DNA of 58,020 nt from Patescibacteria group bacterium (GTDB lineage Bacteria; Patescibacteriota; Minisyncoccia; Phycocordibacterales; JACOZG01), in assembly GCA_038064435.1 (NCBI GenBank), contig JBBTTC010000017.1:1-58020 (forward strand), written 5' to 3'. Of this stretch, positions 8,913-19,489 are shown piece after piece. Under the pieces are notes generated by a model that saw nothing but the letters and a program-made list of their open reading frames with translations, searched no databases and had not been told where the DNA came from. The stretch's first letter is position 1, and each line of letters starts with the position of its first letter. The position numbers and the translations under genes are program-made.

Positions 8913-10571
8913 ATGACTAAGCAAATTATTTTTGGCGACCGGGCCCGAGTGAGTTTGAAGCGCGGTATTGATAAGGTGGCTGATGCCGTGCGCATCACCA
9001 TTGGCCCCAAGGGCCGTAATGCCATTATTGATAAAGGTTACGGCGCGCCCACCATCACCAACGATGGTGTGACTATTGCTAAGGAGGTGAGTCTCAAGGA
9101 TAAGGTGGAAAATTTGGGCGCCGAGATGATCAAAGATGTGGCGTCCAAGACCAATGACACGGCTGGTGATGGTACTACCACGGCCGTAATTTTGGCTCAA
9201 GCGATTATTGAAGAGGGTTTTAAAAAGACGACCTTGGGTGTTAATGCCATGGGGGTGCGGCTCGGCATTGAGGCCGCGGCTAGCGAGGTGGTGGAGGCCC
9301 TGCGCAAAATGGCCAAGCCCATCCAAATCAAAGACAAAAATGAGGTTAAACAGGTGGCCACCATCTCGGCCGAGTCTGAGGAGTTTGGCGGCATCATTGC
9401 CGATGCCATTGAGAAAGTGGGTGAGGACGGCGTGGTGACGGTGGAGGAGTCGCAGTTATTCACCGTCGAGTCGGAATTGGTGGAAGGCATGGAGTTTGAT
9501 AAGGGCTACGTTTCGCCCTACATGATCACTGATGCCGAGCGCATGGAGGCCGTCTATGACGATCCGTTTATTTTGCTGACCGACAAAAAGATTTCCTCAA
9601 TTAAAGATATTTTGCCTTTGCTCGAGAAGTTGGCCCAAGCCGGCAAAAAGGAGCTGGTGATTATTGCCGAAGATATTGATGGTGAAGCTATGGCCACCTT
9701 GGTGGTTAACAAACTCCGCGGCACCTTCCACACTCTCGGGGTTAAGGCACCGGGTTTTGGTGACCGACGCAAAGAGATGCTGGAAGATATTGCCGTCTTG
9801 ACGGGCGGTAAGGTGATCACCGAGGAAGTGGGTTTGAAGCTCGAGAATGCCGACGTCAATTTGCTCGGCCGGGCGCGGCGCGTGATCTCCACTAAGGACG
9901 ACACCAAGATCATTGGTGGTAAGGGCAAGAAGGCCGACATCGAATCGCGCATCGGCCAGATCAAAAAGCAGATCGAACTTAGCGATTCGAGTTACGACAA
10001 AGATAAATTAAAGGAGCGATTGGGTAAGCTCTCGGGCGGGGTGGCGGTGATTAAGGTGGGGGCGGCCACCGAAGCGGAGATGAAATACAAAAAATTGAAG
10101 ATCGAAGACGCGGTTGAGGCGACGCGCGCGGCGGTGAAAGAGGGGATCGTGATCGGTGGCGGCGCGGCCTTGGTGAAGGCCGCGGCCCGCTTGGCTGGCA
10201 AAACGATCAAGGCGCCATCGCCGGATATTGCCGATGAGTTTGAGGTGGGTGTGAAAATTTTACTTAAAGCGGTGGAGGCGCCACTCCGGCAAATTGCTAT
10301 TAATGCTGGCAAAGACGACGGCGCGGTAATTGTGGATCGAGTTAAAAAAACAACTGGCAATGAGGGTTATGATGCCAATGCCGATGAGATTGTGAAAGAC
10401 ATGTTTGCCGCCGGCATCATTGATCCGGTTAAAGTTACGCGCACTGGCTTGGAACGAGCGGCCTCGGCCGCCTCAATTTTGCTCACCACCGAGGTGGCCA
10501 TTACCGATGAGCCTAAGGAAGAGAAGGATATGCCTCCAATGCCCGGCGGCATGGGCGACATGGACTACTAA
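8913..10571 (+). CDS. groEL: Chaperonin GroEL
   Basis: [24 protein letters not shown] motifs; GGM tail. Confidence 0.98.
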
Positions 10572-10599
10572 CCCCGCCCGTTGTGGTATAATTAGCGCC

Positions 10600-11490
10600 G
10601 TGAAAAAATTTAAACAAGGCTTCTCGTTGTTGATAACGGTAGTTATTCTGGCTCTTCTAGCCGGCGGGGGTTATTGGGCGATTACCAAGAAATCGGGATC
10701 ATCACTCATATCGTCATCGGACGGGAACTGGCTGACCTATAGGAACGAAGAACATGGGTTTGAATTTAAATATCCGGTTGATTGGAAAACTAAGATCAGT
10801 CAGAAATATGGTGGCATGGAAACAGAGTTTACTGATAAAATGGGTAAAACGATTCTACTTTTACATCTACCAATTCCCGAGATCGGATACGAAGCGTGGG
10901 CACTTAAAAATGAACGAAGAATTTCCATACCGAATAGCCAGAAGTATTTAACCAGATTTGATTACCAACCAAGCGCAGATGCTGATCCAACCTTTACGGG
11001 TTTTGTTTTAGTCAATTGGAGTATGGATAATTGGAAAAATTCTGGTCAGTTGTCGGTACCGGAGGTCAGTAACGAAAACGATTATCGTCTTAAGTTGCTG
11101 GACGAGATTTTGGCCACCTTTCGTTTTACCGAGCAGACCTATGAAGCAAAGATTTTTCCGACCGGCCAACAGCTTGTTTTTACCGTGCGTTACCCTGATG
11201 GTTGGCGCCCTGAATATTTTTACTATATTGGATCAAGGTATCCAGAGCGAATGAGCGAAACAGAAACGCCGTCTGGGCTCGATTTGATCTTGGAGGGGGA
11301 AGCACAGAGTGGTCCGAATGTCATTCGACTTTTCGGTTCTAGGGTGAGCATGGACACTGGAACTTGTCCAGTCTCGGGGGCCACGCGATGTGTTGTTTTA
11401 CCGCAATTGGGCAGGGCCTTTACACTTAGTAAAGATGTTGAAGTCCAACAGATTTTTGATCAAGTGGTGGCCAGCATTGTTAGGAAGTGA
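10600..11490 (+). CDS. Membrane-anchored protein with pilin-like leader and PsbP-like repeats
   Basis: MKKFKQG|FSLL leader plus TM; W.TY.N...GFEFKYP.DW and FTVRYPDGW repeats. GTG start 7 nt after TGGTATAAT. Confidence 0.65.
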   Translation: MKKFKQGFSLLITVVILALLAGGGYWAITKKSGSSLISSSDGNWLTYRNEEHGFEFKYPVDWKTKISQKYGGMETEFTDKMGKTILLLHLPIPEIGYEAWALKNERRISIPNSQKYLTRFDYQPSADADPTFTGFVLVNWSMDNWKNSGQLSVPEVSNENDYRLKLLDEILATFRFTEQTYEAKIFPTGQQLVFTVRYPDGWRPEYFYYIGSRYPERMSETETPSGLDLILEGEAQSGPNVIRLFGSRVSMDTGTCPVSGATRCVVLPQLGRAFTLSKDVEVQQIFDQVVASIVRK

Positions 11491-11521
11491 GTGCAGAATA
11501 TTAGCAAATTAATTTTTCACC

Positions 11522-12076
11522 ATGACATACACTATTTTAATCGTCGTCGCCGTTATTATTTTGTGGTTTGTGGCCACCTACAACGGCTTTATCCGCCTCG
11601 TGACTCGAACCAAAGAAGCTTGGGCCGATATTGATGTTCAGCTCAAGCGCCGCTATGATTTGATCCCCAATTTGATTGAGTCAGTAAAAGGTTATGTTTC
11701 GCACGAAAAAGATACGCTCGAAAAAATTACTCAAGCCCGCAATATGGCCATGCAGGCTGGCACAGTCGCCGATCACGCCAGGGCCGAAAATATGCTATCG
11801 GGAGCGCTTAAGTCGCTCTTTGCCGTGTCAGAAAGTTATCCTGACCTGAAAGCCAACCAAAATTTTATTGAACTTCAGCGCGAATTGTCCGACACGGAAA
11901 ACAAAATCCAGGCGGCGCGGCGGTTTTATAATGCCAACGCTCGCGACCTGCAAATAAAAATTGATTCTTTCCCGTCAAATATTTTGGCCAACATGTTTAA
12001 GTTCATGCCCCAGGAATTTTTTGATCTTGACGAGGCGAGCGCGGCGGCGCGCGAGCCGGTGAAGGTTGGGTTCTAA
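11522..12076 (+). CDS. lemA: LemA family protein
   Basis: WADIDVQLKRRYDLIPNL, YPDLKANQNF, ENKIQAARRFYN motifs. Confidence 0.95.
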   Translation: MTYTILIVVAVIILWFVATYNGFIRLVTRTKEAWADIDVQLKRRYDLIPNLIESVKGYVSHEKDTLEKITQARNMAMQAGTVADHARAENMLSGALKSLFAVSESYPDLKANQNFIELQRELSDTENKIQAARRFYNANARDLQIKIDSFPSNILANMFKFMPQEFFDLDEASAAAREPVKVGF

Positions 12077-13008: not shown

Positions 13009-13098
<90 letters not shown>

Positions 13099-13149
13099 GA
13101 TTGGCAACTTTGAACCTAAGCAAAATAAGGGTTCTAGAGCCAAATTAAT

Positions 13150-14715
13150 ATGCACATAAAAACCATACAGCTCAAAGATTTCAAACGCTTCAATGATCTA
13201 ACAATTGACCTTGAGAATCACTCTAAAAAAATAATTGCTCTTGTGGGTCCAAACGGGTCAGGTAAGAGCAGTGTCTTTGATGGATTTGAACAGTTTTCAA
13301 CAAACGAAAGAGAAAAGAGGGCTAGAATGGGTTATCGGAAAAATGTTAGTTATCTTAAGAAATCCATTTTTCAGTTGATTGGTATATCGTCCGAAGAGAG
13401 TGATTATGACTCGAGTACTCATGTGCTCGTTGAATCAGACCAGTCAGCATATACACCAACCAGTTTCTATATTCGAAGTGCCCATCGATTTACTCCGCGC
13501 ATTGAGATTAAACAGATTAGAGCACTTTCAAAAATAGAAGAGGATGAAAAGAGGCCAAAGTATTTAATTGATATTGACTCCAGGCTAGAAGAAAACTACG
13601 AAAGACTTATCGGTGGATTTTTTTCCGAGGTTTACGATAAGGATATTACAGGTAAACAATGGTCGGAGAAAAATATACAAAATCTAAATAAATCACTAAG
13701 TGGAATACTAGATATTAGTATTGTTTCATTAGGAAACCCTACTCATGAAGAGGGTAGTCTTTATTTTACAAAAGGAACTTCGAGTAAGTTTCCTTATGAA
13801 AATCTTTCCGCAGGTGAAAAAGAGGTCGTAGACCTTATACTGGATCTTTACATAAAAAGGGATTTTTATTCTAATACCGTCATATGTATTGATGAGCCGG
13901 AATTGCATCTCAGCACTTCTATCCAAAGGAAATTACTAATTGAGATTGAAAAGATAATACCAGATACTTGTCAGCTCTGGGTTGCAACTCATAGTATTGG
14001 ATTTTTGAGGGCACTACAGGAAGACCTGAGAGATAAGACCGCTGTAATTGATTTTTTGGGAAATAATTTTGATGAAACGGTTGTACTAAAACCAATTGTA
14101 GGAACAAGAAAAGATTGGTTTCGTATATTTGAAACGGCCTTGGAAGATTTAACTGGGCTTCTTGCTCCGAAGAGAATTGTCTACTGTGAGGGACGACCAG
14201 ATCCTTCTGTTTCTGGGGCTGAGCAGGGGCTAGATGCAGATGTCTATAACGAGATTTTCTCGAATAAATATCCAGATACCCTTTTTGTTTCAAGTGGAGG
14301 TGGAAACGTTGTTAATAAAAGCGCTCTTCTTGCGTTAAAGATATTAAAGAAAGCCTTCAGTACCGTAGATCTATATTTACTCAAAGATAAGGATGGTTCA
14401 TCTGATCAAGAGCGAAATACTTTCATAAAGTCCGATCTGTCAAATAAAATGCTTATGAGACGTGAGATCGAAAATTATTTATTTGATAAGGAAATTTTGA
14501 AGAAGTTTTGTTCGTCAAACTCGAAAACATTCAATGAGTCTAGATATGATAGTAAAGTCACTGATATTAAGGATCAGAAACTTAAACTCGTACAACAAGA
14601 AATACTGGCTTCATGCCAGGGCTCAGGGAATATTCAACAGTTCAAGAAAGAACTGGCTAAGCATGTATCACCTGATACAGGTGTATTTCAGGAAGTCGAG
14701 ACATCCATATTTTAA
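13150..14715 (+). CDS. OLD-like ATP-dependent nuclease (ABC/AAA_21 ATPase plus TOPRIM-like domain)
   Basis: Walker A GPNGSGKS, signature LSAGEKE, Walker B CIDEPE, ATHS; C-terminal IVYCEG, KDKD (DxD), RREIENYL. Confidence 0.75.
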   Translation: MHIKTIQLKDFKRFNDLTIDLENHSKKIIALVGPNGSGKSSVFDGFEQFSTNEREKRARMGYRKNVSYLKKSIFQLIGISSEESDYDSSTHVLVESDQSAYTPTSFYIRSAHRFTPRIEIKQIRALSKIEEDEKRPKYLIDIDSRLEENYERLIGGFFSEVYDKDITGKQWSEKNIQNLNKSLSGILDISIVSLGNPTHEEGSLYFTKGTSSKFPYENLSAGEKEVVDLILDLYIKRDFYSNTVICIDEPELHLSTSIQRKLLIEIEKIIPDTCQLWVATHSIGFLRALQEDLRDKTAVIDFLGNNFDETVVLKPIVGTRKDWFRIFETALEDLTGLLAPKRIVYCEGRPDPSVSGAEQGLDADVYNEIFSNKYPDTLFVSSGGGNVVNKSALLALKILKKAFSTVDLYLLKDKDGSSDQERNTFIKSDLSNKMLMRREIENYLFDKEILKKFCSSNSKTFNESRYDSKVTDIKDQKLKLVQQEILASCQGSGNIQQFKKELAKHVSPDTGVFQEVETSIF

Positions 14716-14729
14716 AAATATAAATCTGC

Positions 14730-14784
14730 TAACTATAGTATGTAGAATCAAAGTTAGCGGGTGAGTATACTATAGTTATCAATA
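14730..14784 (+). promoter_or_regulatory. Putative controller-protein operator pair upstream of the HTH gene
   Basis: Inverted 11-mers TAACTATAGTA (14730-14740) and TACTATAGTTA (14768-14778); -10-like TATACT at 14766. Confidence 0.65.
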
Positions 14785-14999
14785 TGAAAGGAGAAGTTTT
14801 ACTTAAATTTGGAGAGAAGGTCAGAGAAGAGAGGTTGAAACAGAACCTTTCTCAGGAAGAACTTGCCTCACGAGCCGGGGTACATCGAACATATATTGGG
14901 ATGATCGAGAGAGCAGAAAAGAATATCACACTCGAAAATATTAAAAAAATCTCCAAAGCCCTCAATCTTCAAATTGAATATATGTTTAAAAATCTATGA
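14784..14999 (+). CDS. XRE-family HTH protein, probable R-M controller (C protein)
   Basis: 71 aa; LSQEELA...HRTYIGMIERAEKNITLENI; ATGA-coupled to the next gene. Confidence 0.85.
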   Translation: MKGEVLLKFGEKVREERLKQNLSQEELASRAGVHRTYIGMIERAEKNITLENIKKISKALNLQIEYMFKNL

Positions 15000-16072
15000 T
15001 TTACTTAAGCAATGTTTTTAGATTTATATTTGCATACGGACAAAAAGGCCATCAGATTGGCCGTAAGGTTGGCGATGCACTAGAGATAGTTATCTTTGCT
15101 CTGATCTCAAGAGACAAGGGACTGTCTAAATACCTTGTTGTAGAGAATGGTGTTGAAGGTGCGTCAGGTGCAAAGCATAAAGTAGAGTTTGCGTTCTATA
15201 AGCTAGATAAGGGAAAGCCAACGAAAAATCCAAAAGATTTGTTCGGGCTAATTGAGTGTAAAAAAGTAGGAGCAGAAGTTACTGTAAAGCAATCATTTAA
15301 AACTTGGCACAAAAGTAACAATAAGCCATTTTATACAACCAACGGTTACTCTTTTGGTTTGGCTACTAACTCGGGATCAGTTGATGTTGTGGTTAAGTCT
15401 ATTGATGAAAAAGGAAATAATTTTGCTGTTGATATCGGAAAAAAGACAAATAAATACTCAATGTCTGTGGGAGGTATACTTCTAATGGCTATAGACGTGA
15501 AAGGTGGGCTTTTTATTCTTAATTCAGTAAAGGACTTTTTCAAGGTAAAAGAAAACGTAAAGAGATGTTTAGTTATCACAACAAAAGAATTGAGTGATGG
15601 AAAGGTATCGAAGATTCTAGTTGAAGAATGTCTCACGGGGCCTCAAACTCCAGAAAAGGCAAAACAAGCATCTTTTGTGTCTCTTGATGTTAGAAAAAAG
15701 GTCATGGGAACTTTTGATCCTCAAAAAGGAAATGGAACTTTCGTTTCAACTCTAGTTATTGGAGAGATTTCTCACTGGGAAGAAAAAAGCCTTTCGATGA
15801 TCCGACTTTGTAATGATTATAATCTCTTTGTACCCGATGAAGTCATAATAGAAATATTTGAAAAATTTCAAAAACATTTCGGTCTTACTTTTCAAGATAT
15901 GATGACAAAAAATCACTATAAAACTAATGAGCAAGTGAGAAGTGTGCTGGAGGAGATTATCGGAACTCGCAAGGGAAAGGTTTTAATGGATTTGGCAACT
16001 AATAAATATGTGCATCCTGAACTAACGCTTAAAGCTGGTGAACCACACCTTACATTTATAGAAGTATTCTAG
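14996..16072 (+). CDS. Putative PD-(D/E)XK restriction endonuclease
   Basis: GDALE helix, GASGAKHKVEF strand and LIECKK (ExK); lies between a C-like gene and an MTase. Confidence 0.6.
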   Translation: MIYLSNVFRFIFAYGQKGHQIGRKVGDALEIVIFALISRDKGLSKYLVVENGVEGASGAKHKVEFAFYKLDKGKPTKNPKDLFGLIECKKVGAEVTVKQSFKTWHKSNNKPFYTTNGYSFGLATNSGSVDVVVKSIDEKGNNFAVDIGKKTNKYSMSVGGILLMAIDVKGGLFILNSVKDFFKVKENVKRCLVITTKELSDGKVSKILVEECLTGPQTPEKAKQASFVSLDVRKKVMGTFDPQKGNGTFVSTLVIGEISHWEEKSLSMIRLCNDYNLFVPDEVIIEIFEKFQKHFGLTFQDMMTKNHYKTNEQVRSVLEEIIGTRKGKVLMDLATNKYVHPELTLKAGEPHLTFIEVF

Positions 16073-17289
16073 TTTTTAACAAAGACAAGAATCGCATCTT
16101 TTTTACTCTCTTGCTCTTTGTGATAATCGGCTTTGTGTTGGTATGAATATTTACCTGTAGAGTAGTGCGTTGTTCTATAGTTGATTTCAGAAATTTCATA
16201 ACCGATTCTTTTCATAACATCGATCATTTTTTGATGCACTTTTTCTAATTTTCCTTGAATAGTGCAGTCTCCAATTACAATCGCACATCTGCCACCCTTA
16301 GGCTGTAAGTGATAAGTTTCTCTATACGCTTTTTCGAGACTATCATAGTAATTCTGTACATTTTCTTCTGTTTTTGCAGGCCAAGATTTAAGTTCTTGCT
16401 TTCTGAGTTCTTTTTTTGAATTACCATCCCATAGGTTTTTGAAAGAATCTGCCCACTCAAGCTCAAGATTAAATACTGGCAAATAGTCAAAACAATTTAG
16501 ATATGGTGGATGAGAAATAACTAACCAATAATTTCCTTTCGGCAATTTATGCGAATAGGTGGTCATACTATCGGTTAAAATAGCCACACCTTCTTTTCTG
16601 CTTGCGAAGGCAATATTAAACTCCATTTGGGATCTAATCATATCCTTTACTTTTTTAGCGTAGGCTTCGAATACATTACGCTGTCGCTTGCTCTTGTTTA
16701 TATGAGGACGGACTTCTCCATCGTAAGCTTTCGATACCCGTCTAATTATTGCTAAAAAAGCCAGAACAAAAAAATCTTTCTCCTTTGTTTCCTCTATTGC
16801 TAAAATAGTATCTCGAAGCTTTCCTAAATCAACGACGATATTTTCTTGAAACCACTTATCTAAAAAAACTTGATCGGGAAGATCACGCGACAATGATTTT
16901 TTATCTGGTGTAAAGAAATTATTGGATATTTTAATAAATATCTTTTCCAGCTTATTAATTTCGTATATTGAAGTTTTTACCTTGCACGAAAGTACTGCAA
17001 GGGGGTTTATGTCGATTCCAACTGATCTTATGCTCCTAAGCGAAGCTTCGACTAAAGAAGTTCCTGACCCAGCAAAATTATCGAGCAGGATCCCATTCTT
17101 TGGAGCAGGAAATTGCTCCAATAATTGAGCCGCTACTGTTGATGGAAATTTCCCATAATATCTGAAGTAGTCATGGGTTAGGTAAGATAGTTCGCCAATG
17201 GTTTGTGGTATGTCCCATAAATGCGTAGCTATTTCCTCGCTATCTATGGAGCCTATTGTCGGTAGTAGTTTAAGTAAATATTGTTGCAT
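16069..17289 (-). CDS. Amino (N4-C/N6-A) DNA methyltransferase, alpha-type motif order
   Basis: Motif I LDNFAGSGTSLVEA...GIDINP, then RRVS segment, then motif IV variant VISHPPY. Confidence 0.88.
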   Translation of the reverse strand: MQQYLLKLLPTIGSIDSEEIATHLWDIPQTIGELSYLTHDYFRYYGKFPSTVAAQLLEQFPAPKNGILLDNFAGSGTSLVEASLRSIRSVGIDINPLAVLSCKVKTSIYEINKLEKIFIKISNNFFTPDKKSLSRDLPDQVFLDKWFQENIVVDLGKLRDTILAIEETKEKDFFVLAFLAIIRRVSKAYDGEVRPHINKSKRQRNVFEAYAKKVKDMIRSQMEFNIAFASRKEGVAILTDSMTTYSHKLPKGNYWLVISHPPYLNCFDYLPVFNLELEWADSFKNLWDGNSKKELRKQELKSWPAKTEENVQNYYDSLEKAYRETYHLQPKGGRCAIVIGDCTIQGKLEKVHQKMIDVMKRIGYEISEINYRTTHYSTGKYSYQHKADYHKEQESKKDAILVFVKN

Positions 17290-17295
17290 AAAATT

Positions 17296-17314
17296 TATTG
17301 ATAACTATAGTATA
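17296..17314 (-). promoter_or_regulatory. Copy of the controller-promoter 19-mer upstream of the MTase
   Basis: TATACTATAGTTATCAATA on the minus strand is identical to 14766-14784 on the plus strand. Confidence 0.65.
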
Positions 17315-17358
17315 TATAAGTTCATGATCACAAAGCAAGTGGATAACTCTCGTTTTAC

Positions 17359-17565
17359 CTAAGATTCAATGGAATAATCCACCGCATTCCGCCCCTTATC
17401 CGACTTCGGCTTGGGCACCTCAAACCACTCTGGATGAACTTTGTAGATAGCCCTTAGTTTCTGTATACTTTTATCAAGATCCTCGAATTTGATCCGTGTT
17501 TTCGGTTCAAAGTTCCAGGCATCGTCCCCGCCTTCATTCGCCAGATGTCTATGTTCGAACGGGAA
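17359..17565 (-). pseudogene. Start-less open frame (68 codons), probable 3' remnant of an unidentified gene
   Basis: Protein-like frame FPFEHRHLANEGGDDAWNFEPKTRIKFEDLDK...IES* bounded upstream by TAA, with no start codon. Confidence 0.4.
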
Positions 17566-17627
17566 TTATAAGCTAGTTGACAATTACTTGACAATTGAAT
17601 ATAGATTAGTTTACAATGTAGTTGTTT

Positions 17628-18680
17628 ATGACAAATAAGGAAAAGATACTACAACTAATTATCCAAAACGGAAGGATCACGTCTGTGGAGATAACCAATA
17701 AGATCGGGGTTTCTCGCCAATATGTCAACTTGATAATTTCTGATCTAATTGCGGAAAAACAAGTTATCAAACTCGGTGGAACCCGCAATGCCTTTTATGT
17801 TTCAAAAGAATATATCTCTAAAAATCCAGAAATTATACCAAGCGTACTTAAAAAGAAATACAAAAATGAATTATTAGAGGAGCATAAAATCCTCTTTGAA
17901 ATTGAAGAAAAATTTCCTCGCATTGCACAACTTCCAGAAAATATTAAAAGTATTTTTACTTTTGCGTTCTCTGAAATGTTCAACAATGCCATTGAGCACT
18001 CTCAATCAAAAAGTATCTCAGTTGAAGTATCGCTTCGTGAAAAAGATCTCTCCTTTATCGTGAATGATTCAGGCGTGGGAGCATTTCGTAATATTATGAA
18101 AAAGAAAAATCTGAAATCAGAAATTGAAGCTATCCAAGATCTCTTAAAAGGAAAGACCACGACAATGCCAAAATCTCATTCAGGAGAAGGGATATTCTTC
18201 ACTTCAAAAGCAGGAGATGTTTTTATTTTGGATAGTTTTGGATATCGTTTATCCGTCAACACAGTTAAGCCAAATGTAGCAATTCATCATTTACCGACAA
18301 GAAAACGGGGAACAAGAGTAGTTTTTAGAATCAATACTGACTCAGCCCGACATTTAAATGATGTTTTTAAGAAATATACTAATCTAGCTGGGGAAGGAGA
18401 TTATGGTTTTGATAAAACCGAGATACGAATCAAGTTGTTTACCGCCGGTGGTGTACATATTTCTCGTTCGCAAGCACGTAGAGTTCTAGCCGGACTTGAA
18501 AAATTCAAGATTATTTTGTTTGATTATGAAAAGGTACCAATGGTCGGTCAAGCTTTTGCCGACGAAATTTACAGAGTTTTCCAGGAACTTCATCCAGATA
18601 TTCGTCTTGAAAATGAAAACATGAGTGAGGGGGTAAGATTTATGATTGAGCGATCTAAGAATGAGGCAAAAAGGAAATAA
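17628..18680 (+). CDS. Winged-HTH + HATPase_c-like + STAS-like (DUF4325-type) protein
   Basis: N-terminal HTH GVSRQYVNLII; EMFNNAIEHS, VNDSGVG, HSGEGIFF ATPase boxes; C-terminal SRSQARR...FADEI. Confidence 0.78.
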   Translation: MTNKEKILQLIIQNGRITSVEITNKIGVSRQYVNLIISDLIAEKQVIKLGGTRNAFYVSKEYISKNPEIIPSVLKKKYKNELLEEHKILFEIEEKFPRIAQLPENIKSIFTFAFSEMFNNAIEHSQSKSISVEVSLREKDLSFIVNDSGVGAFRNIMKKKNLKSEIEAIQDLLKGKTTTMPKSHSGEGIFFTSKAGDVFILDSFGYRLSVNTVKPNVAIHHLPTRKRGTRVVFRINTDSARHLNDVFKKYTNLAGEGDYGFDKTEIRIKLFTAGGVHISRSQARRVLAGLEKFKIILFDYEKVPMVGQAFADEIYRVFQELHPDIRLENENMSEGVRFMIERSKNEAKRK

Positions 18681-18682
18681 TT

Positions 18683-18805
18683 ATGGCAAACAGCAATCTT
18701 ACTAACGCGAAACGGGTAAAGAACGACGAATTCTATACCCAGTACGGTGATATTCAGAAGTGGAGATTTGTGCCGATGGAGAACCCGGAAACCATAAATA
18801 CATGA
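18683..18805 (+). pseudogene. Truncated N-terminus of an EcoRI-family adenine methyltransferase
   Basis: MANSNLTNAKRVKNDEFYTQYGDIQK resembles the M.EcoRI N-terminus (K.K.DEFYTQY.DI); the frame stops after 40 codons. Confidence 0.7.
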
Positions 18806-18972
18806 AATTTGAAACTAAAATGCCCGCCGATCTACGGCGAGTGGCTGGCGAGCGCGCCCCGGGCGCGAGAGACGCAGGTGGTAGAGATGTTGCTTCGATG
18901 GCCTAAACTGGTTACTGAAAAATCAATCAATGGCGAGGCGCGGCCACGGAAGATAAAATTGGGATTACTCGA

Positions 18973-19395
18973 TTATTTTTTGAATTTTAGTAGATATCCA
19001 ATGAATAAGCCCGATAATGAGAAAATCGCAATTGAAATAACTCCTGCAATAACATAATAACTCAATATGTAAACCAATTGATTTGCTCCAAGCACCTTAA
19101 CGATTACCGCACCGACCAAACTATTTGAAAGTCTTTCGGTGTAGAAAAATACCCACAAATATTTTCCATATTGAATACTGCAGAGCATGCTTTTACAAGT
19201 CATTAAGTAAAAGATGTAAATAACATGGTTTAGCAGACCCAAAATGAACCCCGAATAGAAGCCGGCGCTTTTATACCCACACAATTTTTTTCTCAGATAT
19301 ATAAATGTGGAAACAAAAACAATTAAAGAGAAAACTAGGAAGATCATGAGGCTTAATGAAGACCCATAATGTACAGAGTATTGCGAGTTAAGCAT
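18973..19395 (-). CDS. Hypothetical membrane protein
   Basis: 140-aa AT-rich ORF with about three hydrophobic segments. Confidence 0.55.
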   Translation of the reverse strand: MLNSQYSVHYGSSLSLMIFLVFSLIVFVSTFIYLRKKLCGYKSAGFYSGFILGLLNHVIYIFYLMTCKSMLCSIQYGKYLWVFFYTERLSNSLVGAVIVKVLGANQLVYILSYYVIAGVISIAIFSLSGLFIGYLLKFKK

Positions 19396-19489
19396 AAGCT
19401 TGATTGTATTCTCAAATACCTGATTTGTATATGATGATATGCGAATAACCGAGATGGACGGGGGTGGGTTTACGGTCTAGAATGGCGGG

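What the first reader, a model, noticed from the sequence alone, without database searches (positions are those of the whole stretch)
13099..17320. Candidate composite defence system: OLD-like nuclease plus controller-REase-MTase at tRNA-Ser
Seen: a four-gene AT-rich block directly after tRNA-Ser(GGA): ABC-ATPase/TOPRIM, XRE HTH, PD-(D/E)XK-like gene (ATGA-coupled), and a convergent MTase overlapping it by 4 nt. Both R and M have non-canonical catalytic motifs and the two promoters share a 19-mer. Known: ATPase-nuclease modules such as PrrC and PARIS back up R-M systems by sensing anti-restriction proteins. Inference: this may be an R-M system with a dedicated OLD-type back-up. It could equally be two independent systems sharing a hotspot. 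This is the best candidate for an undescribed system in the window.
Basis: partly seen in the sequence, partly recalled or inferred. Interest (0 to 1): 0.7.

Follow-up and report, generated by a model that had tools for sequence, protein, structure and literature searches.

The report
BspHI-like R-M beside PARIS-like nuclease
Right after a tRNA-Ser gene, a groundwater bacterium carries two ordinary anti-phage modules side by side: a controller-regulated restriction-modification cassette of the BspHI family and a one-gene ATPase-nuclease of the OLD/PARIS kind. Comparative data show they move independently and do not form one dedicated system.

Summary
tRNA-Ser(GGA) is followed by an AT-rich block with a 521-aa ABC-ATPase/Toprim gene, a 71-aa C protein ATGA-coupled to a 358-aa REase, and a convergent 406-aa MTase overlapping it by 4 nt. 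An exact 19-mer precedes both C and M.

The composite interpretation is not supported. C, R and M are all homologous (37/37/44% identity, same layout) to the only R-M on plasmid pBspH1 of Acinetobacter sp. NEB 394. The 19-mer is a conserved C-box plus -10 element, an arrangement like that of Esp1396I.

The ATPase belongs to a widespread single-gene family (over 2,500 relatives). Its best defence profile is fused PARIS (AriAB).

None of 80 ATPase loci carries this R or M, and none of 80 REase loci carries the ATPase. Homology with relatives breaks at 14,703-14,720, at the ATPase stop codon. An 89%-identical cassette lacks the ATPase, and 72-83%-identical ATPases lack the cassette.

One lead remains. 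About 12 of 80 ATPase relatives sit in or beside other R-M operons, mostly between hsdS and hsdR of Type I systems, and two close relatives flank different R-M cargo. A generic, non-dedicated R-M guardian role is therefore plausible but unproven.

Both modules are new members of known kinds.

The parts
13009..13098 (+). tRNA-Ser(GGA); left anchor of the variable island
   Evidence: ARAGORN; Rfam tRNA 53 bits. The 82%-identical ATPase in L175 sits 49 nt after the same tRNA.
13099..19450 (.). AT-rich variable island (GC 0.33-0.40 against 0.50-0.59 in the flanks), between tRNA-Ser and murA
   Evidence: Composition profile; ORF list.
13150..14715 (+). Single-polypeptide ABC ATPase (residues ~1-300) plus Toprim nuclease domain (residues ~340-445) plus helical C-terminal tail; OLD/PARIS kind (fused-AriAB-like)
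   Evidence: Pfam AAA_21 7.5e-18 and AAA_15 1.3e-15. PADLOC AriAB 4.2e-29; the C-terminus alone matches only AriAB, 1.1e-5. Invariant GPNGxGKS, LSxGEK, DEPELH, H281, E347, D413xD415, E439xE441. AF2 pLDDT 82 with a beta-alpha Toprim strand order. Foldseek finds PtuA, GajA and retron-Eco8 at 1e-9 to 1e-10.
14720..17356 (.). Self-contained C-R-M cassette (BspHI family); this is the extent of DNA homology with cassettes found in other contexts
   Evidence: blastn breakpoints against L171-L174 and L091-L093. Metagenome contigs diverge ('loose ends') at 14727.
14727..14784 (+). C/R promoter-operator. C-box palindromes ACTATAGT at 14732-14739 and 14769-14776, GCTAAC...GTTAGC inverted repeat, -10-like TATAGT 7 nt before the C ATG (probably a leaderless mRNA)
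   Evidence: Repeats D7, I3 and I11; conservation in homologous cassettes; promoter-like match.
14784..14999 (+). Controller (C) protein, XRE-type HTH
   Evidence: PADLOC Control_protein 5e-22. PDB C.BclI 8.6e-14, C.AhdI 1.3e-12, C.Esp1396I 1.3e-7. 37% identity to the pBspH1 C protein.
14996..16072 (+). Type II restriction endonuclease, BspHI family; ATGA-coupled to C
   Evidence: PADLOC REase_II PDLC03437 1.1e-56, full length. 36.6% identity over 93% to the pBspH1 ORF. Invariant D27, E30, E64, E87-C-K89 and GPQTPEKAKQASFVSLDVRKK.
16069..17289 (-). DNA methyltransferase. Motif I DNFAGSGT lies N-terminal and motif IV SHPPY lies C-terminal (alpha-like order); probably N6-adenine
   Evidence: PADLOC MTase_II 5.9e-98. 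44% identity to the pBspH1 MTase. Motif conservation. The sister REase clade pairs with a Dam-type m6A MTase.
17296..17333 (-). M promoter: C-box/-10 copy of the 19-mer (17296-17314), a TCATGA site (17322-17327) and a -35-like TTGTGA (17328-17333)
   Evidence: TCATGA lies within 120 nt upstream of M in 19 of 35 non-redundant cassettes; the next most frequent palindrome occurs in 7 of 35. It is also present in pBspH1.

Best explanation
Two autonomous defence modules lie next to each other in a tRNA-Ser-linked variable island of an uncultured groundwater bacterium. The host is probably Patescibacteria, judging from its closest homologs.

Module 1 (13150-14715) is a one-gene ABC-ATPase/Toprim nuclease of the OLD/PARIS kind. 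By analogy, the ATPase part senses a phage cue and licenses the Toprim nuclease to cut tRNA or DNA, stopping growth of the infected cell. This step is inferred.

Module 2 (14720-17356) is a BspHI-family Type II R-M cassette. M methylates the site, probably m6A in TCATGA, and R cuts unmodified DNA. The C protein binds ACTATAGT-type C-boxes in both promoters. That delays and then limits C-R expression and turns M down. This mechanism is known for Esp1396I-type systems and is inferred here from homology and from conserved operators.

The adjacency is that of a defence island, not of an operon or a dedicated partnership. Any cooperation would be generic and would act in trans.
For: Independence of the two modules:
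- None of 80 species-level genome loci of ATPase relatives carries a homolog of this R or M within +/-10 kb.
- None of 80 metagenome loci of REase relatives carries the ATPase, while C-R-convergent-M is kept in about 40 of them.
- A cassette whose REase is 89% identical sits in L171 after unrelated genes.
- ATPases at 81% and 72% identity have no R-M nearby.
- ATPases at 82-83% identity are followed by a serine recombinase and by different methyltransferase/helicase cargo.
- DNA homology with ATPase relatives ends at 14688-14702. Homology with cassette relatives begins at 14720 and ends at 17328-17356.
- In the same metagenomes, contigs diverge at 14727.

Identity of module 2:
- PADLOC Control_protein, REase_II and MTase_II match at 5e-22, 1e-56 and 6e-98.
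- C, R and M are 37%, 36.6% and 44% identical, in the same layout, to the only R-M on pBspH1 of Acinetobacter sp. NEB 394. REBASE uses the prefix BspH for that strain's enzymes (PMC12707154).
- BspHI cuts TCATGA and is blocked by adenine methylation (PMC5778455).
- C-boxes are conserved upstream of both C and M across the family. A -10-like TATAGT lies inside each copy.
- Esp1396I is the precedent for C binding at both the CR and M promoters of convergent genes (PMC2691842).

Identity of module 1. Fused AriA-AriB proteins are part of the published PARIS definition (PMC9122126; PMC11464382).
Against: - The ATPase family is enriched next to R-M systems in general. About 10 of 80 relatives are inside or beside Type I hsd operons, one is 3 nt after a Dam-like MTase, and one follows an Eco57I-type enzyme. 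Two of the four closest relatives examined flank other methyltransferase cargo. Adjacency to an R-M may therefore be selected rather than accidental.
- Short-sided contig joints hint that strains lacking the whole 4.3-4.4-kb ATPase+C-R-M block coexist. In this population the two modules may be gained or lost together.
- Many REase loci are short contigs, so absence of the ATPase is informative for only about 25 of them.
- No function was tested.
Confidence: 0.75

Rival explanations
1. Generic R-M guardian. The ATPase/Toprim family is a trans-acting 'anti-anti-restriction' module, like PARIS sensing Ocr or PrrC sensing inhibition of EcoprrI. It is repeatedly recruited next to whichever R-M a genome carries. 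Here it would back up the BspHI-like system without any specific molecular coupling.
For: - The family's best defence-profile match is fused PARIS.
- Members sit between hsdS and hsdR with gaps of 3-34 nt in L041, L057, L058, L077 and L082. They sit beside hsd genes in L036, L048, L050, L051 and L067.
- These members are scattered across the family tree.
- Other relatives adjoin a Dam-like MTase or an Eco57I-type enzyme.
- Close relatives L175 and L176 adjoin other methyltransferase/helicase cargo.
- PARIS and PrrC are described as R-M guardians (PMC12707154).
Against: - About 85% of relatives have no R-M as an immediate neighbour. Many sit among housekeeping genes.
- Similarity of the Toprim domain to AriB is remote. 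The window protein has no Pfam DUF4435 hit, and the C-terminal profile finds no PDB AriB.
- Defence genes cluster for reasons unrelated to function.
- No trigger is known.
Confidence: 0.3
2. Dedicated composite system. ATPase, C, R and M form one functional unit in which the nuclease is activated when this particular R-M is inhibited.
For: - The genes are tightly packed: 68 nt separate the ATPase stop from the C start, and no terminator-like site lies between them.
- The four-gene block is identical in several groundwater metagenomes.
- Possible block-level presence/absence variants exist.
Against: - There is no co-occurrence in 160 related loci.
- The nearest relatives of each part lack the other.
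- Homology breaks exactly between the two parts.
- The C-R operon has its own conserved promoter-operator starting 5 nt after the ATPase stop.
Confidence: 0.07
3. Mobile-element accessory. The ATPase is primarily cargo of, or an exclusion or stabilisation gene for, a small tRNA-targeting integrative element driven by a large serine recombinase. In the window the recombinase has been lost or replaced by the R-M cassette.
For: - In the window and its closer relatives the gene starts 46-217 nt downstream of tRNA genes of eight identities: Ser-GGA, Ser-CGA, Gln, Arg, Lys, Asn, Tyr and Glu.
- An orthologous convergent serine recombinase (56-64% identity) directly follows it in L013, L175 and L176, which come from different samples and include a gammaproteobacterial MAG (L013).
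Against: - No recombinase or remnant of one is detectable in the window.
- Most family members have neither a tRNA nor a recombinase nearby.
- Being cargo does not exclude a defence role, so this reading describes how the gene travels more than what it does.
Confidence: 0.2

Closest known systems
BspHI restriction-modification system (plasmid pBspH1, Acinetobacter sp. NEB 394)
   Same: Same three genes in the same layout: C, then R, with a convergent overlapping M. Identities are C 37%, R 36.6% over 93% of its length, and M 44%. A TCATGA site lies in the M promoter region of both.
   Different: The sequences are only about 37-44% identical, so specificity is not proven. The C-boxes differ in sequence. 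The host is an uncultured groundwater bacterium, and the cassette is chromosomal, next to a tRNA.
Esp1396I-type C-protein regulation (also AhdI, PvuII)
   Same: A C-R operon and a convergent M gene, with C-protein operators at both the CR promoter and the M promoter (PMC2691842). The C protein matches C.Esp1396I, C.AhdI and C.BclI structures at 1e-7 to 9e-14.
   Different: The operator sequence is ACTATAGT within a GCTAAC...GTTAGC frame, and the two palindromes are 37 bp apart. R and M are unrelated to Esp1396I. No binding data exist.
PARIS, single-polypeptide (AriA-AriB fusion) form
   Same: An ABC ATPase of the AAA_15/AAA_21 type fused to a Toprim nuclease domain. The PADLOC AriAB profile is the best defence match for the whole protein (4e-29) and the only match for the C-terminal domain alone (1e-5). 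Single-gene fusions are part of the published PARIS definition (PMC9122126).
   Different: The window protein does not hit Pfam DUF4435, and only 3 of 39 relatives hit it weakly. No sequence match to solved AriB was found, and only E=0.04 to AriA. The trigger and target are unknown. The fused forms themselves were not reported as tested in the passages I read.
Class 1 OLD-family nucleases (P2 Old, Thermus scotoductus OLD)
   Same: A single gene with an N-terminal ABC ATPase and a C-terminal Toprim domain with conserved acidic residues. The fold search finds OLD-class proteins GajA and retron-Eco8 at about 1e-9.
   Different: Sequence similarity to TsOLD (6P74) is limited to the P-loop region (E 1.8e-4). 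The Toprim profile finds no OLD structure. Class 1 is defined as not lying near other defence genes (PMC10568477), which is untrue here.
PrrC/EcoprrI and RloC (R-M-embedded abortive-infection nucleases)
   Same: About 10 of 80 relatives of the ATPase are inserted in Type I hsd operons, as prrC is (PMC12707154). They share a P-loop NTPase plus nuclease logic.
   Different: There is no sequence relationship to PrrC or RloC in any library searched. Here the neighbour is a Type II cassette with its own promoter. The nuclease domain is Toprim, not a PrrC-type anticodon nuclease.

Membership tests
C-protein-controlled Type II R-M, BspHI family | REase homologous to the family's enzyme | tested here: met
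   PADLOC REase_II PDLC03437 1.1e-56 over residues 1-336. tblastn 1e-53, 36.6% identity over 93% to the pBspH1 ORF.
C-protein-controlled Type II R-M, BspHI family | Cognate MTase with an AdoMet-binding motif I and a catalytic motif IV | tested here: met
   DNFAGSGT and an invariant SHPPY. PADLOC MTase_II 5.9e-98. 44% identity to the pBspH1 MTase.
C-protein-controlled Type II R-M, BspHI family | Controller protein with conserved C-box operators | tested here: met
   C.BclI 8.6e-14 and C.AhdI 1.3e-12. Palindromic operators are conserved upstream of C and of M in homologous cassettes.
C-protein-controlled Type II R-M, BspHI family | Recognition and cleavage of TCATGA, with protective methylation | not testable with these tools
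   Indirect evidence only. TCATGA occurs upstream of M in 19 of 35 cassettes against at most 7 of 35 for any other 6-bp palindrome. The site is not depleted in the window: 13 observed against 13.4 expected.
PD-(D/E)XK nuclease fold (for the REase) | Core alpha-beta-beta-beta fold with a D/E...(D/E)xK active site | tested here: inconclusive
   Invariant E64 and E87-C-K89 lie on consecutive predicted strands. However, Foldseek finds no PDB match below E 5e-3, and the profile search finds none.
PARIS (AriA/AriB, including fused AriAB) | ABC ATPase of the AAA_15/AAA_21 type | tested here: met
   AAA_21 66 bits and AAA_15 58 bits, both above their curated cut-offs. PADLOC AriA profiles 1e-19 to 2e-20.
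PARIS (AriA/AriB, including fused AriAB) | DUF4435-type Toprim nuclease domain | tested here: inconclusive
   The window protein has no Pfam DUF4435 hit, and 3 of 39 relatives hit at E of 0.011 or worse. The C-terminus alone matches PADLOC AriAB at 1.1e-5. Toprim residues E, DxD and ExE are invariant.
PARIS (AriA/AriB, including fused AriAB) | Passes the single-gene fusion profile used to call PARIS | tested here: inconclusive
   The protein scores 99.7 and 43.9 bits against the two PADLOC AriAB profiles. The published DefenseFinder-type thresholds are 80 and 20 bits (PMC9122126). I could not verify that the profiles are the same, and most of the score comes from the ATPase half.
PARIS (AriA/AriB, including fused AriAB) | Activation by an anti-restriction protein, and tRNA cleavage | not testable with these tools
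   Needs experiments.
OLD family, Class 1 | Single gene with an N-terminal ABC ATPase and a C-terminal Toprim domain | tested here: met
   Domain order.
OLD family, Class 1 | Detectable homology of the Toprim domain to OLD nucleases | tested here: not met
   The C-terminal profile finds no OLD or GajA chain in the PDB at E up to 10. No OLD-type Toprim Pfam hit. TsOLD is matched only at the P-loop.
PrrC/RloC-type R-M-embedded anticodon nuclease | Gene embedded in a Type I R-M operon, with a PrrC/RloC-type nuclease domain | tested here: not met
   Here the neighbour is a Type II cassette with its own promoter. There are no PrrC or RloC family hits. Embedding in hsd operons is seen only in about 10 of 80 relatives.
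Septu / Gabija / retron I-B / MADS / AbiL (multi-gene systems whose ATPase profiles also hit) | Presence of the obligatory partner: PtuB HNH, GajB helicase, RT plus ncRNA, other mad genes, or AbiLii | tested here: not met
   No such ORF lies in 13100-19450. No ncRNA other than the tRNA is found. The NCBIfam PtuA and MAD3 hits are far below cut-off, 52 against 500 bits and 27 against 420 bits.

The most novel reading that the evidence does not exclude
The 515-530-aa ABC-ATPase/Toprim family, of which 13150-14715 is a member, is a widespread, self-contained 'R-M guardian': a fused-PARIS-like abortive-infection nuclease. It has been recruited many times independently into or beside R-M loci of different types. 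These include positions between hsdS and hsdR of Type I systems, next to Dam-like and Type IIG enzymes, and next to Type II and Type III-like cargo in candidate-phylum bacteria. It often travels with a tRNA-targeting serine recombinase. In this window it would guard a BspHI-like system.
Probability: 0.25. Interest if true: 0.6.

Novelty: new member of a known kind. Interest (0 to 1): 0.3.

Why it matters
As posed, the finding is ordinary. It is a defence island in which a standard C-controlled Type II R-M sits beside a standard single-gene ATPase-nuclease, so it should not be counted as an undescribed system.

It still gives three small, usable leads:
1. It provides a sequence-level handle on the BspHI family. 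No structure of this family has been solved. The MTase has an invariant, unusual SHPPY motif. The presumed recognition site recurs in the M promoter, which suggests methylation-sensitive feedback in addition to C-protein control.
2. It identifies a large, barely annotated ATPase/Toprim family at the edge of the PARIS definition. Its repeated insertion into Type I R-M operons makes the 'R-M guardian' idea testable beyond E. coli PARIS and PrrC.
3. It is an example of defence-module turnover at tRNA genes in groundwater bacteria with small genomes.

Tried and rejected
- Septu, Gabija, retron I-B, MADS and AbiL: their ATPase profiles hit the N-terminal half, but the obligatory partner genes or ncRNA are absent. 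All rejected.
- PDB searches for the REase, by sequence, profile and fold, found nothing. The PD-(D/E)XK fold therefore remains an inference.
- PDB profile search with the Toprim domain alone found nothing.
- Depletion of TCATGA in the window as a test of specificity: not depleted, 13 observed against 13.4 expected, so uninformative.
- Search for a serine recombinase or a remnant of one in the window: none found.
- Search for a direct repeat of the tRNA 3' end as an att site: none found. There is only a 14-nt inverted repeat, 13106-13119 against 17501-17514, of unclear meaning.
- Identification of the ORF fragment at 17362-17565(-): no relatives in any fetched locus.
- RNA evidence for co-transcription: only DNA metagenomes hold the sequence.
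- Phage collection: no homolog of the ATPase.
- Literature searches for this ATPase family inside Type I R-M loci gave nothing specific.

Full report

Yes. ARAGORN and Rfam place tRNA-Ser(GGA) at 13009-13098. The ORF list gives four genes:
- 13150-14715 (+), 521 aa
- 14784-14999 (+), 71 aa
- 14996-16072 (+), 358 aa
- 16069-17289 (-), 406 aa

C and R share ATGA. R and M overlap tail-to-tail by 4 nt. GC falls from 0.50-0.59 to 0.33-0.40 between about 13100 and 19450. It also holds a wHTH-HATPase_c-DUF4325 gene (17622-18680) and a small membrane protein (18973-19395, minus strand).

The 19-mer TATACTATAGTTATCAATA is at 14766-14784, and its exact reverse complement is at 17296-17314. It therefore has the same orientation directly in front of the C and the M start codons.

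**2. The R-M part**

PADLOC profiles give Control_protein 5e-22, REase_II PDLC03437 1.1e-56 (full length) and MTase_II PDLC03239 5.9e-98. The C protein matches the solved controller proteins C.BclI, C.AhdI and C.Esp1396I.

The only plasmid in PLSDB with a relative of the REase is pBspH1 of Acinetobacter sp. NEB 394. Its only R-M is an HTH gene, a 381-aa 'hypothetical protein' and a convergent, overlapping DNA methyltransferase. All three are homologous to the window's genes, at 37%, 36.6% and 44% identity. REBASE names that strain's enzymes BspH... (M.BspHII, in PMC12707154). BspHI cuts TCATGA and is blocked by methylation of either adenine (PMC5778455). I therefore file the cassette under the BspHI family.

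Three further observations fit this assignment:
1. TCATGA lies within 120 nt upstream of the MTase start in 19 of 35 non-redundant homologous cassettes. These include the window (17322-17327) and pBspH1. The next most frequent 6-bp palindrome occurs in 7 of 35.
2. The sister clade of the REase (44-49% identity) pairs with a small Dam-type m6A methyltransferase instead. This points to adenine methylation.
3. The MTase has motif I (DNFAGSGT) N-terminal and an invariant SHPPY motif IV about 190 residues later. The 'non-canonical' motif is thus a conserved family trait and not decay.

The REase keeps D27, E30, E64, E87-C-K89 and a 21-residue invariant block. Its AF2 model is confident (pLDDT 87.6, pTM 0.83). 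It has no counterpart in the PDB by fold or by profile, so the PD-(D/E)XK assignment stays an inference.

**3. The 19-mer**

Upstream of C there are two ACTATAGT palindromes (14732-14739 and 14769-14776) inside a GCTAAC...GTTAGC frame. The same pattern recurs upstream of C in relatives whose C protein is 57-97% identical. More distant relatives carry the classical ACTTATAGTCCGTGGACTTATAGTC type of C-box.

A C-box copy also recurs upstream of M, in close relatives and in distant ones (for example GATTACTTTAAGTACC). A -10-like TATAGT lies inside each copy. It is 7 nt before the C ATG, which suggests a leaderless C-R mRNA, and 14 nt before the M ATG.

This arrangement matches the one described for Esp1396I, where C binds at both the CR and M promoters of convergent genes (PMC2691842). 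The shared 19-mer is therefore explained by known biology.

**4. The ATPase**

Pfam finds AAA_21 and AAA_15. An alignment of 28 relatives at 50-81% identity shows these invariant features:
- Walker A (GPNGxGKS), signature (LSxGEK), Walker B (DEPELH) and H281
- in the C-terminal third, E347 (YCEG), D413xD415 and E439xE441-N-Y

The AF2 model (pLDDT 82) places E347 at the end of the first strand, and the DxD at the end of the third strand, of a beta-alpha-beta-alpha-beta-alpha-beta unit. That is the Toprim pattern.

Foldseek's best PDB matches are PtuA, retron-Eco8 and GajA, at about 1e-9 to 1e-10.

Among 5,027 PADLOC profiles, the fused PARIS profile AriAB is the best match for the whole protein (4.2e-29). 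It is the only match for the C-terminal 200 residues alone (1.1e-5). Pfam DUF4435 is hit only weakly, and only in 3 of 39 relatives. No solved AriB or OLD Toprim is found by profile search.

[quoted passage not shown] The gene is therefore a remote member of the OLD/PARIS kind. It is probably what standard tools would label merged PARIS. It is not a new architecture.

**5. Are the two parts one system?**

ATPase side. The ATPase family is large: over 2,500 proteins at E<=1e-5, nearly all 510-530 aa. It is spread over many phyla, and 321 species genomes were confirmed in the scan. In the 80 best genome loci (+/-10 kb), tblastn finds no relative of the window's R or M.

REase side. In 80 metagenome loci of REase relatives, none has the ATPase. 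C-R-convergent-M is kept in about 40 of them.

Nearest relatives:
- A cassette whose REase is 89% identical follows unrelated small genes (L171).
- ATPases at 81% and 72% identity stand among housekeeping genes.
- An 82%-identical ATPase sits 49 nt after the same tRNA-Ser(GGA), in the same GroEL-LemA neighbourhood. It is followed by a serine recombinase, RadC and two N6_N4 methyltransferases (L175).
- An 83%-identical ATPase is followed by the orthologous recombinase, a SEC-C protein, a 584-aa methyltransferase and a DEAD/ResIII helicase (L176).

Homology breakpoints. DNA homology with ATPase relatives stops at 14688-14702. Homology with cassette relatives starts at 14720 and ends at 17328-17356. 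In the metagenomes that hold the block, other contigs diverge exactly at 14727.

The junction between the two modules is therefore at the ATPase stop codon. Each module occurs without the other, so the dedicated-composite reading is not supported.

**6. What remains of the back-up idea**

Immediate neighbours of the 80 ATPase relatives are heterogeneous, but the most frequent families are Type I R-M subunits: Methylase_S in 5, HSDR_N in 7 and N6_Mtase in 1.

Clustering finds hsdR, hsdM or hsdS within 5 kb in about 10 loci. Five of them have the order hsdS-ATPase-(hsdR), with gaps of 3-34 nt (L041, L057, L058, L077, L082). These loci are scattered over a neighbour-joining tree of the family. 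Two further loci adjoin a Dam-like MTase (3-nt gap) or an Eco57I-type enzyme.

Together with L175, L176 and the window, this shows a recurrent but non-specific liking for R-M neighbourhoods. It resembles prrC inside EcoprrI, and PARIS as 'R-M guardians' (PMC12707154). I rate a generic guardian role at about 0.3. It is compatible with the best explanation, because it needs no dedicated coupling.

**7. How the ATPase travels**

In the window and its closer relatives, the gene starts 46-217 nt downstream of a tRNA gene. Eight tRNA identities are represented: Ser-GGA, Ser-CGA, Gln, Arg, Lys, Asn, Tyr and Glu.

In L013, L175 and L176, a convergent, orthologous large serine recombinase follows it directly (56-64% identity). 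The window has no such recombinase.

In two metagenomes, short-sided contig joints connect 13092-13115 to 17410-17528. The stretch 17417-17620 has 2-5 times the depth of the block. Strains without the whole 4.3-4.4-kb block may therefore coexist. This evidence is weak because the joint sides are only 23 nt long.

**8. Verdict**

Both modules are new members of known kinds. Module 2 is a BspHI-family, C-controlled Type II R-M. Module 1 is a single-polypeptide ABC-ATPase/Toprim protein at the PARIS/OLD boundary. All mechanistic statements are inferred from homology, and nothing was tested functionally.

I score interest at 0.3. The main value lies in the side leads listed under 'noticed in passing'.

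Noticed in passing
window 17322-17327; L179 (pBspH1) about 50 nt upstream of the M start; L091-L174 cassettes: TCATGA, the BspHI site, lies in the MTase promoter region of 19 of 35 non-redundant homologous cassettes. In the window it sits between the -35-like and -10-like hexamers. This suggests methylation-sensitive feedback on M in addition to C-protein control.
   Followed up: partly
L041, L057, L058, L077, L082 (about 10001-11600); also L036, L048, L050, L051, L067: Relatives of the ATPase (41-46% identity) are inserted in Type I R-M operons, typically between hsdS and hsdR with gaps of 3-34 nt. These loci are scattered across the family tree.
   Followed up: partly
window 13099-13149; L175 5862-6001; L178 563-681; L011, L012, L013, L015, L035, L061: The ATPase gene starts 46-217 nt downstream of tRNA genes of eight different identities. 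In L013, L175 and L176 it is followed directly by an orthologous convergent large serine recombinase (56-64% identity). This looks like a small tRNA-targeting mobile module.
   Followed up: partly
window 17622-18680 (+), with its promoter at 17577-17617: A 352-aa protein with a winged HTH, a histidine-kinase-like ATPase (HATPase_c_2) and a STAS-like DUF4325 domain. It is preceded by tandem TTGACAATT repeats and a near-consensus promoter. It has no PADLOC match and is found in none of the 160 related loci. Its function is unknown.
   Followed up: partly
window 17362-17565 (-) and 17417-17620: A 68-codon open frame without a start codon and of higher GC looks like the 3' remnant of a gene. The stretch has 2-5 times the depth of the neighbouring block in four groundwater metagenomes, and assembly graphs break there. 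No relatives were found.
   Followed up: partly
window 13106-13119 and 17501-17514: A 14-nt inverted repeat (13 of 14 matched) lies just after the tRNA and just after the R-M cassette, near the positions of contig joints that skip the whole ATPase+C-R-M block. It could be chance or a recombination scar.
   Followed up: no
L094-L107, L112, L114 (for example L100 7105-7689, L096 1656-2279): The sister clade of the REase (44-49% identity) keeps the C protein and its C-boxes. It pairs with a small convergent Dam-type (PF05869) methyltransferase instead of the 406-aa SHPPY enzyme, a case of methyltransferase replacement within one REase family.
   Followed up: partly
window 18973-19395 (-): A 140-aa predicted multi-pass membrane protein at the right edge of the AT-rich island, directly before murA. 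It has no family match.
   Followed up: no
window 14996-16072: The BspHI-family REase gives a confident AF2 model (pLDDT 87.6, pTM 0.83) with no similar solved structure (best Foldseek E 5e-3). The family appears to be structurally uncharacterised.
   Followed up: yes
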